Origin: Tubiluchus corallicola | Taxonomy: Eukaryota; Animalia; Priapulida | Reading direction: 5' to 3' | DNA length: 64,000 nt | NCBI GenBank assembly: GCA_030141605.1 | Contig: JAQGDQ010000132.1 | Location: 379,797-443,796 of the forward strand | In this document: positions 52 through 64,000 of the stretch, in pieces | How positions within the stretch are numbered: the first letter of the stretch is position 1 | Layout of the letters: the number at the start of each line of letters is the position of its first letter | Notes under the pieces: model-generated | The model's database searches: none | What the model was told of the DNA's origin: nothing | The model's input: the letters and a program-made list of their open reading frames with translations, nothing else | Translations under genes and position numbers: made by a program

Positions 52-3000
52 TTGGATGGAGAAAAATCCATTAAAACGCAGCAGGGCGACAGCATCCCTG
101 TGTCACAGCATGGGTCGTTTATACTTGATAGGCGGCTCAACAAAGTCTGATAGTAAGCTCACACATTTACCTGACATAGAAGTGTACAATGAAGAAATGG
201 ATACATGGGTGTACATAACATCTATGAAACATCTCAGAACTAGACCTGTCACTGCGACTGCTGGTAAGAAGTTGAAAAAAGTTAAAGATTGCTTAAAGTC
301 AAACTAAACCCTCACTGTAATAAAAGCTTTTACAACTTACAATCATACTCTCATTGTGAATATTCAATTTATTTTATTATAAACTTACTGTAAAACTTCT
401 TTCTTTTGATTTTTAATGTCTTCGTTGTTAGTGGTACATGTATTTAATTTGAAGAATCGCCGTTTTTCTTTGCGCGAGGTGAATGGCCCTGGGAATGAGT
501 GCAGTCATGAGGTCACCAAAAATCGGTAAACATACACCGGTAATAATCAAAGACGCTTTCTGTACAAAGTACGTCATTATCGCTGTCTCGCGCCAAAGAG
601 GTGAAAGAGGTAAGTTATTTAATTCATAAGTTTCTTTTCCTTAATAATAACTATGAATTCTGTGTGTAATCATAATTACGCTTTAAAAAAATTCAATGCC
701 TGTTGGGGTTATATAGGGTCTTAAATAATTACATGTCTACCACTGTGTGAGATAATTGTTCGGTAACATTCTAAAACATGTTGGTACGTTTTAAAAATTT
801 CTCCCTTTTACTGTTCTCTCCTTTTCTTTTAACCCATTTTCTCATCTCTCTTTTCTCCTCTCCTCTCTCCTTCTATATTCTCCTCTCCTCCCCTCGCCGC
901 GCCTCTCCTCTCTACTCTCTTTTCTCGATTTTTCCAATTTTTCTTTTTCTTTTTTTTCTTTTTCCATTATTCCCGCAGTTCTTGTCTGTATTAACTTTCT
1001 ATGCCTTCGCAGTTAGCCCACTAGGCCTCGTCTCCTTCCATTTCTTCCCGTCTTATTTGCATGTTACTAATAACACCTCTGTTACCGTCGCTACAACATA
1101 CTAAATTACAGTTGTAGCAATAAAAAATTATTACTAAAGGTGTAATTACTATTATTATTAGTAGTAGTAGGGTGGTAGTGGTGTTGGTGTTGGTGTTGGT
1201 GGTGGTGTTGATGGTGGTGTTGGTGTTGGTGGTGGTGGTGTTGGTGGCGGCGGCGGTGTTCGCGGCGGCGGCAGCAGCAGCAGCAGCAGCAGTGGAATCA
1301 GTAGCAGTAACAGTAGAAGTAAAATATTTGAACTCTCAAAATAAACGCGCGAAGACACTCTTTAAAGATAATCAAAAACCCAAGTCTGAAATTATCCTTA
1401 CTATATATATTTCTAAATGTTTGATAAACTTCATTAATTACTTCAGGAACCAGAATATATATTTTCGGTGAAACGAGTGCGTCATCGGACAGTGATTATG
1501 TACTAGATGTTGAATGCTATGATACACAGAAAAATCAATGGATACCAAATTTAGAATTGTTTCCGGAAAAGCTTGTCGGTATGAAACCTGTTGTGCACGA
1601 AAAGTCGCCCAGCTTAGTAGAAGGTCTGCCCTCTGCCGCTGAAACACCAGCACCTAGTTCATCAGAAGAAAATAAGAGCAGGACACCATTAGAGGATACG
1701 TCAAATAATTTTATTTCATCGTTGGGTGGCGTGAATCCACGAAAGTCTGATCCTAAGTAAGTTTGACTTGATGAGACTTTTGAGAGTTTCCAATGTGCAT
1801 CCACATTTTTGCTAAGCAATGTATTTTGGTCTTTTTTTACTACGATGAACTATGACTTTTTGGAATTAAACTTGCAACTGCATTTCGTCTTTTTTACTGT
1901 GATCAACTATGACTTAGGCCTACAACTGTTATTGCACTATTCAGACTGACAAATAACATTCTGGGCCAAAATTGGTTTCAGTTCACTATTCATTTTGATC
2001 AGTCAGGACTTGATCAGTAAGAACTAGAAAAACTCACAACTGGGCAAGCAGACAGGTGTGAGGTACATTAAAGAGGTACATTATTGACGATGCCAGGTGG
2101 TAGTTTTACCTTTTTAAAAGTTTTGCTGTACGAGAAACCAATAGCTCCATAATAAATATAAGGCCCTTTCACACCTGTTCAGGTCATTGTAATGAAACTA
2201 CAGTACCCTGTTATAACACAGACCTAGTGTTGTAATTTATAGAAACATTTTTTCATTTACTTTTTAAGTGTTTTACTTTTGATTTCCCGAAAATTAATAG
2301 TTTTTAAGTAACTTTGGTGTAATCAGTCTGTGTGAATAATTATTAGTCTGTGTGGAAAAGTAGTCTCACACAGACCAATTTTAAAGTACATTTTTGTGTT
2401 TTTTCCGGCATTTAATTAGTCTGTGTTAGCGCAGTGCAGCGCAGGTCTTGAACACATAAAACAAAGGTCTGTGCAATCTGGCTGCCGACTCTGTACCTGT
2501 AATAAATGCAAGATGAACACGGCATTGCTTTTGCCGGGAAGGCAATGATACGCATTAGCCTGGTGCTGGATGCAGACAGAAAATGGAGTACCGTTGTGTT
2601 GCGAGAAATCGTAGCAAATTACCAAAAAGAGTTCAATAGCAAGGCGGTTAATGAAGAAACCCCTAGCTCAGAGTTTAAGCCCGCTGAAGAAGATTCTGTT
2701 TGAAAAGCAAACCACTGTTACTGTCATTTTAATTTCATTGAAAATAAACTTTACATTGGAGTGAAAAAAGTTCTGTGAAATTAGTCTGTGTGGAAAATTA
2801 TGGTATCACAGACAAATTTTGATAGTGCAACTTCAAAAGTTGGTTTCAAAATTAGTTTCACGTAGACTAATTACACTAAACAGTACAGCAACACAACTAA
2901 AAGTTACAACGTTTCTCTCAGTGCCATCACTATCACTGAACAGTTTTCAGAAAAAACTGTTGCAGTGCAAATGTACTCCTGGAAATTTCTTAGTTGTATT

Positions 3001-6000
3001 CTCAAACAGGAATAGCTGGTGTTTTTCTTAGATTGATGGGAAAACATTTCTGGACTTACGATCATACCACCAACAAATGGAATGGAAGAACTGAGATGCC
3101 AGAGTCACTGTCTAATCACGCCGTAGCTTCGTTTGGTTCTTACATCTTTGTAGTAGGTAACGACGAATCCGCACTTTATTTCTGCTTTGCAAAAGTAAAG
3201 AGCAGTAACTACAATTTTAAGAAAATTGAAGTTTTGATGCATTCTTATCAAACAGATTGAACTCATTCTTGCTAATTATAATGAAATTTCATCTTAAGTG
3301 GTTTTTTTGCAATAAGTAATGTCCAGTGACAGAGCATGCAAAAACAAGACCCGTCATCCATTACATACAAAACTGTCCAGCGACTATCAGAATTAGCACT
3401 TTTGGTGCCTAATACTACACAGAAATAAAAGCAATAACTTTTCGTTTTTCATGCAAACTAAATGCTACATCTATGGCCTGTCTTCCATTAGAACACAAAT
3501 TTAAACGTTGTGTGGAAAATTTTATCTTCATTAGTGGCATAATAATTTTTTGGAGCAATATTGCTAACTTTAACTGCATTTTTCTCAAAAGCAAGATTTT
3601 GAAGTTATTGCTCTTTATTCTTTATCAGCAGAATTCAGCTGGCTAGATATTTTGCATGTTCAACATTTTTGATAAATTAGTTGTACAGGTTACGGTAACA
3701 AAACAGACGAGGTTTAGCACTTACAGCAGAACACATAAACAATAAAATCAGAACACACAAGCGTAACCTGTCACCATAGGCGTAGCCAGGTTCTACAGTT
3801 AGGGGGAGTAAGCACAAAAAAGACGCAGTGTATACGTATCAATTTTTAACGCATTGATTATACGTTTTATTTTTGTGTTTAATATGAAAACGCGAGGAAG
3901 ATACAGTTTTAAAGGTAGTACATAATTGTTGTTTTGTATATTAAATTAAAACACAAAAAGCGTTATTACTATTATTATTATTATTATTATTATTATTATT
4001 ATTATTATTATTATTATTATTATTATTATTATTATTATTATTATTATTATTATTATTATTATTATTATTATTATTATTATTATTATTATTATTATTATTA
4101 TTATTATTATTATTATTATTATTATTATTATGATCATAATCATCATCATCATCATCATCAACTGACACTAAAATATACATACTAAGATTATTTTAGGAGG
4201 GACAAAAATAAACGCCAAGGATCCAAGTGAAATGAAGCCAGTGTGTACGGTGTTCAGGTATGATGTCAGAAATAGCCAATGGTCATCAGTAGGAAAAATG
4301 AGTCAACCGAGGATGAATCATGAGTGCGTGGTGTTAGGTGAGACGATCTTTGCAATTGGCGGGAGAGACACAAAGATGCAGTAAGTTTTACTAAAAAATT
4401 TCACTTCAGTGCGTTAAAATTCATTACAGTTGCTGATACTGAAAATTAAACTGAGGAAGTTAGGAAGTTTTCAGATAATGCCAGCTAGAAATTCAATGAC
4501 TGAAAAGTCGTTTTGAATGATTGACAGATGTCCAAAACTTGACTGGCATCGCAAAGCTAAAAGTTCGTGCTTGAACTGCTATGGGAAAGAGAGGTAAAAG
4601 AGGGATCTTCTAAAGAATTAAAGCATGCTTTGATCAGGCATAAAAAAATTAATTACATTTTGATTATTTTTCAAGTAATGAGTTGTATCTCTTATCGAAG
4701 CCTATCAAAGCGCACACCTGTGGACATCTGTATTCTAGTTTATGGGTATCTGGCTTTAAAGTAGCTCTATAAAGAGGTTTATTTTGCCATGCTACTGCGC
4801 TCCTCATTGTTCCTTATCTTAATCAAAACTTGGCACTCCTTTACCCATCATGATGTAAACAATGCAAATTTTAAATTCCCACGAAAAATGGGTTGCATAG
4901 CAACGGTAAATGACGTTCTAGTTGACATGTCCAGTCAGTTGGGCATTGCACGTTATTAAAGTTTGTATATACATGTTACATATGCGTGCAAGCACTACGT
5001 AAGTGCGTTGCGTTCGGCAAGCGAGTAACTTAGTATTTTACATTGCAGTCTGGTTTAACTAACATGCGCAACTAATTTTAGCATTTATGTGTTTTCAAGT
5101 CATACATCACAATGTTTATTTTATCTCTTCACTTACTTGTATTTGTATTATATTTTTACATCAGTTTTCTTCAAATCTGCAAAAATCTAGATACAAGTTG
5201 AAAGTGTATAAGTTGTAGACTTTCCATTTTACCATTATTTCTTTTGGTAATTTTAGAATTTTAAATACCGTAGAATGTTATTATCCACTGACTGACAAGT
5301 GGACACCTGGGCCATCTTTTCATCATGCCAGAATCGGATTTGCCGTTGCCGTTCACAATCATCAGATATTTATGGTAGGAGGTGTGACTCAAGACACGAC
5401 CATTTCCAGCCAAGTTGAAGTTTTTAGCAATAACGCGTAAGCATTAATTTTGCTGATATCAGTAAGCTGCTCATCAGAATAAGATCATCAGATCCTTATT
5501 TATTTTCCTGATTATCAGGCACAGCCGGTGTACATATCACGCATTTAGAAAATTGTGTAATAATACTTTACAGTTTTAATAAAAACTGGTTTATCAATAA
5601 AAAATAATAAAACGTCGTCAGTGACATACCTCCATATGTAATTGATAAAGCTGCAACCCACAGCTATCATGTGTTTAAACGCTATTTCAAAATGTTTTTC
5701 ATTAATACCTACACAGATTTTTGTCACATACGTAATTGTTACATATGTTGTCTTTATGGCACTACGTGAGTTGACACAAATTTTATGTCAATTCAGCTTT
5801 AAAATTTATTAATGATGATAATGACTTTATTATTACTTTATTGATATCGTTGTCATCGTTGTTTGGCACAACACTGGTTTTCACATCGACATACTCTTTC
5901 TGTTTCTCTGTCTTTCGTCCCTTCGTTCTTTTCATCCATCCCTCTCTTTCTCCTTTTCCATTTCTTCCTGAGGTGGCCTTCAAGTGCAAATTTTGACGAT

Positions 6001-63571: not shown

Positions 63572-64000
63572 GTGATGTGTTTACCCTTCCTTTCACAGTG
63601 TCTGTGGCTATAGTGCAAAGTTTCAGATTAACTTTGCTAAGTGCCTGTGTTTTTAATGCGAAACTATTAGACAGAGATCTAGAAACTTTTAGACACTACG
63701 TGGAAAATCCGTGCGCCATTGATCATTAGTGACTGCGTAGCATTACCAGTTGATAGCCCAGCGGTAAGCCTCTAGAAATGGCTGATGTCCTGTGTCTTCG
63801 ACCCCTTGACTGAAGTCATCGTTCACCAAACTATTGTCTGAGTCTCTACCAGGCAAGTTTCAAGACACTCGTGTTTCCAAATTAACTGAATTACATGTGG
63901 ATGCCCTCGATCATCGCGGATCTAAGAAAACTCATGCAACGATATCTCGTTATTGTTGATGTTAGGTATTGAGTTTTCTTAGGCATCCACTTTTAATTCA

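What the first reader, a model, noticed from the sequence alone, without database searches (positions are those of the whole stretch)
52..64000. Tandem scruin-like cluster whose members are different permutations of one modular ancestor
Seen: five co-oriented genes reuse the same parts. The architectures are multi-propeller (gene 1), BTB-BACK-insert-propeller (genes 2 and 5), propeller only (gene 3) and insert only (gene 4). Kelch introns share phases 2,1,2,2,1, and the second Kelch exon is exactly 125 nt in all five copies (3032, 8027, 28549, 40419, 63447). Established: Limulus scruins are two-propeller Kelch proteins of the sperm acrosomal process, where alpha-scruin cross-links actin, and BTB domains dimerise. 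Inference: a lineage-specific kit of cytoskeletal cross-linkers, plausibly in sperm, with different valency and spacer length.
Basis: partly seen in the sequence, partly recalled or inferred. Interest (0 to 1): 0.8.

Follow-up and report, generated by a model that had tools for sequence, protein, structure and literature searches.

The report
Mix-and-match scruin-like propeller gene cluster
Five neighbouring predicted genes in an invertebrate genome are related copies that lost or multiplied whole blocks of exons, one carrying at least three propeller domains, and because their family lacks the usual docking motif for the cell's protein-destruction machinery they likely serve as structural scaffolds, possibly in sperm like the horseshoe-crab scruins they resemble.

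Summary
The cluster is real. Five co-oriented gene models splice in frame through GT-AG sites. The 125-nt exon and the Kelch intron phases 2,1,2,2,1 are as reported. Corrections:
- Modules are lost or multiplied, never reordered.
- Gene 1 has at least three propellers.
- Gene 3's start is unresolved.
- Gene 4 has its own N-terminus plus 26 basic 15-residue repeats.
- Three Kelch intron positions are shared with an oyster relative, so they are ancestral.

The four complete propellers form one clade (100/99) inside an invertebrate BTB-BACK-spacer-Kelch subfamily (99/95). That subfamily holds horseshoe-crab proteins that NCBI names "beta-scruin-like"; the nearest BTB relative is from Priapulus. 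It lacks the Cul3-binding phi-x-E motif (1 of 37 rows, against 86 of 108 outside), which favours a structural role. Gene 1 likely arose from a chimeric exon that made a phase-2/phase-2 block able to repeat in frame, independently of scruin.

Not shown: kinship with true alpha/beta-scruin (sequences not retrieved), transcription, testis expression, actin binding. No IQ motif is present. Verdict: new variant of a known kind.

The parts
52..13748 (+). Gene 1, 5' end outside the window. 12 exons: 52-263, 1447-1756, 3032-3156, 4197-4380, 5257-5436, 6201-6412, 7059-7368, 8027-8151, 9099-9285, 10417-10602, 12175-12386, 13549-13748. 813 aa seen; partial propeller A plus whole propellers B and C.
   Evidence: B vs C 66% identical, dN 0.23, dS 0.88
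1447..1756 (+). Chimeric 310-nt exon: last Kelch blade, 33-aa linker, first strand of the next propeller; enters in phase 1, exits in phase 2
7059..7368 (+). Second copy of the 310-nt chimeric exon
15977..35525 (+). Gene 2, 10 exons: 15977-16081, 17751-17913, 18208-18946, 19693-19774, 21130-23063, 28549-28673, 29715-29895, 32159-32356, 33735-33949, 35350-35525. 1305 aa: N-terminus, BTB-BACK, 654-aa spacer, six-blade propeller.
   Evidence: N-terminus matches the Priapulus protein P0025
18208..18946 (+). BTB-BACK exon of gene 2; no phi-x-E motif, shortened 3-box region, N-terminal helix present in the model
21988..22440 (+). Motif of about 150 aa inside gene 2's spacer, shared with gene 4; no Pfam match
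39021..44359 (+). Gene 3, propeller only. Likely start ATG 39021 (open frame from 38835), donor 39184, then 40419-40543, 42236-42419, 43148-43345, 43473-43687, 44187-44359; 352 aa from that ATG. 5' end unresolved.
   Evidence: dN 0.33, dS 1.70 against gene 2
45784..50091 (+). Gene 4, 2 exons (45784-45947, 47562-50091), 897 aa, pI 9.7: unassigned N-terminus, shared motif (47752-48156), basic low-complexity tail; no BTB, no propeller
48877..50048 (+). 45-nt tandem repeat, 26 copies, 95% matches; codes a Lys/Ser/Pro-rich 15-residue unit, net charge +48 over 403 aa
53737..63571 (+). Gene 5, 3' end outside the window. 7 exons: 53737-53856, 54769-54988, 56210-56942, 58298-58385, 60069-60297, 61222-62191, 63447-63571. 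828 aa seen: BTB-BACK, 409-aa basic spacer, start of propeller. First four intron phases 0,1,2,0, as in gene 2.
3032..3156 (+). 125-nt Kelch exon, copy 1 (others at 8027-8151, 28549-28673, 40419-40543, 63447-63571)

Best explanation
This is a tandem array of predicted genes descended from one invertebrate BTB-BACK-spacer-Kelch gene of the group that holds horseshoe-crab 'beta-scruin-like' proteins, and its products likely act as Cul3-independent structural scaffolds of different valency, possibly in sperm. Shown: the common exon plan, monophyly of the four complete propellers, purifying selection, and absence of the phi-x-E motif in gene 2 and in 36 of 37 subfamily rows. Inferred origin: after tandem duplication, a deletion joined the last Kelch exon of one copy in frame to the end of the spacer exon of the next. 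That made a five-exon block bounded by phase-2 introns, which unequal crossing-over could repeat (gene 1). Partial copies kept the end of the spacer plus the propeller (gene 3) or the spacer motif alone, extended by a basic repeat (gene 4). Inferred function: genes 2 and 5 would be BTB dimers holding two propellers on long flexible arms; gene 1 a chain of three or more propellers 33 residues apart; gene 3 monovalent; gene 4 a basic filler. My odds by step: descent and block duplication 0.9; no Cul3 adaptor role for gene 2, 0.7; sperm or male germ-line role 0.45; direct F-actin cross-linking 0.3.
For: Exon models and phases. Kelch trees: window clade 99 inside a 22-row clade at 96 among 67 rows; 100/99 inside a 22-row clade at 99/95 among 44 chosen rows. 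BTB-BACK tree of 145 rows built without the motif loop: 37-row clade, SH-aLRT 87; gene 2 groups with Priapulus P0025 at 92. phi-x-E in 1 of 37 against 86 of 108; the Ala-Met pair of KLHL3 positions 77-78 in 0 of 37 against 63 of 108. In KLHL3, A77E, M78V and E85A each severely disrupt Cul3 binding (PMC3616122 passages). The gene 2 BTB-BACK model is confident (pLDDT 93); its BTB fits ZBTB-type BTBs at about 1.3-3 A, while the whole module fits Cul3 adaptors at about 6-10 A. 'beta-scruin-like' names on Limulus P0196 and Tachypleus P0204/P0206. Two identical-length 310-nt chimeric exons, and three near-equidistant gene 1 copies of one exon, dS 0.71-0.76. Precedent for testis-specific Kelch and lysine-rich structural proteins: scruin, calicin, cylicins.
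Against: True scruins are not in any tree. No strict IQ motif in 5 of 5 models. Gene 5 has a phi-x-E-like triplet one residue off register, though with Glu at the position of KLHL3 A77. The BTB clade is unstarred (87), and 22 of 108 outside rows also lack the motif, among them two KLHL31-like neighbours. Beta-scruin may not bind actin and the calyx holds little F-actin. Drosophila Kelch cross-links actin yet also works with Cullin-3 (PMC2812842 abstract). The sample of relatives is the top 150 hits to a profile of the window's own BTB-BACK, so it is biased towards them.
Confidence: 0.5

Rival explanations
1. The genes are divergent Cul3 substrate adaptors (KLHL10- or Kelch-like), and the BTB-less products tune them by competing for substrates.
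For: The nearest solved relatives are all Cul3 adaptors: KLHL3, KBTBD2, KLHL11. Gene 5 keeps a phi-x-E-like triplet. The sister groups in the Kelch tree carry KLHL9/22/31-like names. Drosophila Kelch acts with Cullin-3 on actin structures.
Against: Motif absent in 36 of 37 subfamily rows, Ala-Met pair absent in all 37, 3-box region shortened in gene 2. Spacers of 654 and 409 aa, against 18-24 aa in three outside rows, would uncouple the propeller from the ligase. Three of five genes have no BTB within the window.
Confidence: 0.2
2. The proteins are structural scaffolds, but of another tissue or structure (muscle, cilia, cuticle-secreting cells), and actin is not the ligand.
For: Nothing in the sequence points to sperm. 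The subfamily is present in molluscs, a brachiopod, a millipede and chelicerates. Beta-scruin is reported away from actin.
Against: The only characterised proteins tied to this clade by name are sperm proteins. Lysine-rich repeat proteins accompany calicin in sperm heads; this is an analogy, not homology.
Confidence: 0.2
3. Genes 2, 3 and 4 are one locus: a common BTB-BACK head spliced to alternative 3' cassettes, or gene 2 read on into gene 3 to give a two-propeller protein.
For: Gene 3 has no clear first exon. There is no AATAAA/ATTAAA within 900 nt of gene 2's stop, while genes 1, 3 and 4 have one.
Against: The best acceptors inside gene 3's open frame score 3.4 and 2.4, below the weakest of 32 modelled acceptors (4.2). 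The best donor inside gene 2's last exon scores 3.3, below the weakest of 32 donors (4.4). Gene 4 has its own ATG exon with a donor at 8.1 and an acceptor at 7.3. Poly(A)-type hexamers occur at 36678-36728.
Confidence: 0.07
4. Genes 3 and 4 (and extra propellers of gene 1) are decaying duplication debris, or the array is an assembly artefact.
For: In-frame stops upstream of gene 3's frame; gene 4's repeat is recent (95% matches).
Against: Open frames and intact splice sites; dN/dS about 0.26, 0.19 and 0.12 for the three comparisons, with synonymous sites far diverged. DNA contigs of run X1 cover parts of genes 2, 3 and 4 with few differences.
Confidence: 0.03

Closest known systems
Limulus alpha- and beta-scruin (PMC2120335 abstract; PMC2138045, PMC2174084, PMC2173959 passages)
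   Same: Tandem Kelch propellers joined by a short protease-sensitive linker; horseshoe-crab proteins named 'beta-scruin-like' fall in the same clade as the window's propellers.
   Different: Scruins have two propellers and bind calmodulin. Gene 1 has three or more, a 33-aa linker with no IQ motif, and its propellers are each other's nearest relatives, so the multiplication is likely independent. The scruins themselves were not compared.
Uncharacterised invertebrate BTB-BACK-spacer-Kelch proteins: Priapulus XP_014677272, Lingula XP_013408062, Haliotis XP_046561198, Pecten XP_033745875, Crassostrea XP_022297637, Limulus XP_022253465/8, Centruroides XP_023225750
   Same: Same clade in both trees, same loss of phi-x-E, long spacer, same intron after BACK and three shared Kelch intron positions in oyster fragments.
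   Different: Their spacers are 59-264 aa in 13 rows measured, against 654 and 409 aa here; chelicerate members carry IQ motifs. None of the retrieved clade members has two full propellers.
KLHL/KBTBD Cul3 substrate adaptors (KLHL3 PDB 4hxi, KLHL11 4ap2, KBTBD2 8h36)
   Same: BTB-BACK-Kelch domain order and fold.
   Different: Cul3 contact residues are not conserved, the spacer is very long, and there are BTB-less derivatives.
Mammalian calicin and cylicins of the sperm calyx (PMC10684152 passages); C. elegans SPE-26 (PMC11843878 passages)
   Same: A Kelch protein beside a basic lysine-rich repeat protein (gene 4, gene 5 spacer); a propeller-only form like gene 3.
   Different: Analogy only: gene 4 has 0 KKD/KKE motifs; homology to calicin, cylicin or SPE-26 was not tested.

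Membership tests
Kelch six-blade propeller proteins | Six Kelch repeats with Gly-Gly, aromatic and Trp positions | tested here: met
   Pfam Kelch_1 on 8 of 8 Kelch exons given; alignment of 4 propellers
BTB-BACK-Kelch (KLHL-type) architecture, genes 2 and 5 | BTB, BACK and C-terminal Kelch domain in one protein | tested here: met
   the joins are predicted from DNA, and gene 5's propeller runs off the window
Cul3 substrate adaptors | phi-x-E motif and Ala-Met pair in the alpha3/beta4 region | tested here: not met
   Gene 2 lacks both; gene 5 has a shifted phi-x-E-like triplet but Glu-Leu at the Ala-Met pair
Cul3 substrate adaptors | Physical binding to Cul3 | not testable with these tools
   No Cul3 sequence was available to the complex tool; needs a pull-down
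Scruins (alpha, beta) | Propellers group with alpha/beta-scruin | tested here: inconclusive
   They group with horseshoe-crab proteins named 'beta-scruin-like' (99/95), but scruins were not retrieved
Scruins (alpha, beta) | Exactly two propellers | tested here: not met
   Gene 1 has three or more; genes 2 and 3 have one; gene 4 none
Scruins (alpha, beta) | Calmodulin-binding site (an IQ motif in the neck; that it is an IQ motif is recalled, the complex is in PMC2173959) | tested here: not met
   No strict IQ motif in 5 of 5 models; the part of gene 1 outside the window is unseen
Scruins (alpha, beta) | Sperm acrosomal localisation; F-actin cross-linking (alpha) | not testable with these tools
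   No RNA holder listed; bench assays needed
Cylicins (gene 4) | KKD/KKE repeats, pI above 10 | tested here: not met
   0 KKD/KKE; pI 9.68

The most novel reading that the evidence does not exclude
An old, unstudied invertebrate Kelch subfamily gave up Cul3 binding to become a sperm-head structural family. From it, horseshoe-crab scruin and this animal's three-plus-propeller protein arose independently. Here one locus has been taken apart into a full kit of dimeric long-arm, multivalent, monovalent and cylicin-like basic proteins that co-assemble, paralleling the calicin/cylicin calyx of mammals.
Probability: 0.25. Interest if true: 0.75.

Novelty: new variant of a known kind. Interest (0 to 1): 0.48.

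Why it matters
Scruin has long stood as an isolated horseshoe-crab protein. If the clade found here is its parent, scruin's origin becomes testable across molluscs, brachiopods, priapulids and chelicerates, with a plain sequence signature: BTB-BACK without the Cul3 motif, and a long spacer. Gene 1 shows a concrete route from one propeller to many through a single chimeric exon, and gene 4 shows a spacer exon turning into a stand-alone repeat protein. The building blocks, tandem duplication and symmetric-phase exon repeats are all familiar, and function is unproven, so interest is moderate.

Tried and rejected
No whole genome is held, so gene 1's start and gene 5's end could not be read.

Word-based homologue searches were weak: none for gene 2's BTB-BACK at E 1e-20 among longer proteins; 23 distant Kelch proteins at 26-38% identity for the fourth-exon profile; 3 hits for a chelicerate propeller, none named scruin. 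No chain named scruin among the 60 shown of 80 PDB matches.

No RNA holder was listed. Run X1 behaves as DNA: it covers introns, and no joint at a modelled intron is listed. Its higher depth at 22219-23083 was dropped as a copy-number hint, because depth on long pieces elsewhere ranges from about 3 to 38.

The idea that gene 4's N-terminus is a BACK remnant was rejected: score -3.3, reached by 225 of 500 shuffles. A profile of the post-BACK segment missed the small exons; they were found by a splice-site scan.

The shared gene 2/gene 4 motif gave no Pfam family, no usable Atlas hit, a monomer model at pLDDT 35 and no relative in metagenome contigs (one search likewise for the Kelch exon profile). 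A complex prediction for the two motif copies never ran because the queue was full, so self-association is untested.

No Rfam family, no tRNA, and no Pfam match for 10 other open frames. Paper searches: scruin + testis + BTB gave 0; six accession or locus numbers gave 0.
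Full report
Observation. The window is animal DNA, 36% G+C, with spliced genes. A self-comparison of open frames shows five families of Kelch exons, two BTB-BACK exons and one motif shared by two long exons. I set exon ends by hand from the three-frame views and joined them in scripts. Every modelled junction is AG/GT and no model has an internal stop. 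The 125-nt exon starts at 3032, 8027, 28549, 40419 and 63447, and the Kelch introns have phases 2,1,2,2,1 in all four complete propellers. No RNA holder was listed, so all joins are predictions from DNA.

Anatomy. Gene 1 (52-13748, start outside the window) holds the last two exons of one propeller and two whole ones. Gene 2 (15977-35525) has 10 exons and 1305 aa: N-terminus, BTB-BACK, a small post-BACK exon, a 1934-nt spacer exon and five Kelch exons. Gene 5 (53737 to beyond the window) repeats the first four intron phases 0,1,2,0, and its post-BACK exon begins with the same four residues as gene 2's; its spacer shows no match to gene 2's. Gene 3 is a propeller with a short stub. Its frame is closed by a stop at 38832, the likeliest start is ATG 39021, and no acceptor inside its open frame reaches the weakest modelled one. 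Gene 4 has two exons and 897 aa: an unassigned N-terminus, a motif of about 135 aa that is 52% identical to part of gene 2's spacer, and 26 copies of a basic 15-residue unit. Module order never changes, so this is loss and multiplication, not permutation.

Selection. Nei-Gojobori estimates give dN/dS of 0.23/0.88 for gene 1 propellers B and C, 0.33/1.70 for genes 2 and 3, and 0.33/2.69 for the shared motif; the last two dS values are near saturation.

Relatives. A profile of the two BTB-BACK exons against 1.84 billion representatives returned 150 listed hits. The second-ranked hit is Priapulus caudatus XP_014677272 and the first a pseudoscorpion protein with two BTB-BACK copies. The Priapulus protein also matches gene 2's first two exons, so the animal may be a priapulid or a related lineage; I did not determine the species. 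The best matches to the propellers are from gastropods, bivalves, a chiton, Lingula, a millipede and chelicerates. NCBI names some horseshoe-crab members 'beta-scruin-like' (P0196, P0204, P0206).

Trees. In a quick Kelch tree of 67 rows (BTB-bearing hits with 230-400 aa of Kelch, 19 isoforms or near-duplicates left out) the four window propellers form a clade (99) inside a 22-row clade (96). In a careful tree of 44 rows (40 of those plus 4 added; distant outgroups dropped) the values are 100/99 and 99/95, with KLHL9/22/31-like rows as sister. A BTB-BACK tree of 145 rows (168 less 23 isoforms or near-duplicates), built without the motif loop, gives a 37-row clade at SH-aLRT 87, unstarred, with gene 2 next to Priapulus (92) and gene 5 next to those (90). 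True alpha- and beta-scruin were never retrieved, so the scruin link is indirect. Gene fragments clustered with an oyster member break at the same three Kelch positions and after BACK: the exon plan is ancestral to the subfamily.

Cul3 surface. In KLHL3 the phi-x-E motif (M83-S84-E85) and A77/M78 contact Cul3, and A77E, M78V and E85A each severely disrupt binding (PMC3616122 passages). The motif is present in 1 of 37 clade rows (gene 5, shifted by one, with Glu at position 77) and in 86 of 108 other rows; Ala-Met is in 0 of 37 and 63 of 108. Against this: 22 outside rows also lack the motif, kin share states so these are not independent events, and the sample was drawn with the window's own profile. 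Gene 2 also lacks about seven residues in the 3-box region. Its BTB-BACK model is confident (pLDDT 93, long N-terminal helix). The BTB part fits ZBTB-type BTB domains at 1.3-3 A and the whole module fits Cul3 adaptors at about 6-10 A; a hinge difference alone could give that. Spacers are 654 and 409 aa here, 59-264 aa in 13 clade rows and 18-24 aa in 3 outside rows.

Mechanism of origin (inferred). In single-propeller genes the first strand of the propeller ends the spacer exon at a phase-2 intron, and the last blade sits in the terminal exon. In gene 1 both occur in one 310-nt exon, twice, with a 33-aa linker. A deletion between two tandem copies would make such an exon and leave a five-exon block with phase 2 at both ends, free to repeat in frame. 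The three gene 1 copies of the fourth Kelch exon are about equidistant (dS 0.71, 0.71, 0.76) and group with genes 2 and 3, so the multiplication is local. Scruin has two propellers joined by a short linker (PMC2120335 abstract) and works as a calmodulin complex (PMC2173959 passages). Chelicerate clade members carry IQ motifs before the propeller, and the window's five models have no strict IQ motif. None of the retrieved clade members has two full propellers.

Function (inferred). I commit to non-ligase structural scaffolds of graded valency, possibly in sperm, at 0.5 overall. In favour: loss of the Cul3 surface, basic propellers (pI 8.8-9.6), the scruin-like names, and the analogy to calicin plus lysine-rich cylicins (PMC10684152 passages) and to propeller-only SPE-26 (PMC11843878 passages). 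[quoted passage not shown] The passage on the spiral sperm of the priapulid Tubiluchus (PMC5371643) is context only. PMC2174084 was seen as passages. No supplements were read; gene lists in supplements of gonad or sperm studies could bear on expression.

Novelty. My searches found no paper on this subfamily: 'scruin' gave 75 papers with 40 listed and 49 from 2008 on with 40 listed, seen as listings; scruin + testis + BTB gave 0; six accession or locus numbers gave 0. The library lacks most subscription papers. The scan's notes held nothing near this place, nothing by sequence and no finding with the word scruin. The parts and processes are known; the three-plus-propeller chain, the stand-alone spacer protein and the Cul3-less subfamily around scruin make it a new variant of a known kind. 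Interest 0.48.

Noticed in passing
window 39532-40089 and 44594-45121 (opposite strands): Two 85%-identical copies of a 558-nt element with 62-nt imperfect inverted ends and very high summed contig depth in run X1; likely a high-copy MITE.
   Followed up: partly
window 20406-20836; partial copies at 7520-7873, 30215-30340, 60399-60765, 62912-63107: A second dispersed element of about 430 nt with perfect 12-nt inverted ends, in introns of genes 1, 2 and 5.
   Followed up: partly
window 293-717 and 12986-13454: 68% identical intron stretches after the fourth Kelch exon of gene 1 propellers A and C, whose last exons are also closest (69%); may mark gene conversion or the edge of a duplicated unit.
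   Followed up: partly
window 24292-25224: A compound trinucleotide microsatellite of about 930 nt in gene 2's longest intron; other long microsatellites at 3963-4131 and 33008-33336.
   Followed up: no
window 21355-21554 and 22644-22794; 61778-61966: Coding tandem repeats inside the spacers: 75-nt x 2.7 and 63-nt x 2.4 in gene 2, 42-nt x 4.5 in gene 5. Spacers lengthen by internal repeats in three genes.
   Followed up: no
window 2506-2700 (+), in an intron of gene 1: A 65-codon ATG-led open frame that reads like protein; no Pfam match. Could be an unrecognised exon or a transposon fragment.
   Followed up: partly
window 35862-36100: A G+C-rich patch (about 50%) with a short open frame between genes 2 and 3; a possible promoter or first exon of gene 3.
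   Followed up: partly
stored proteins P0024 and P0188 (Cordylochernes): Database models of clade members with a second BTB-BACK copy or a fused serpin domain; may be annotation fusions of tandem genes, hinting that the family is clustered there too.
   Followed up: no
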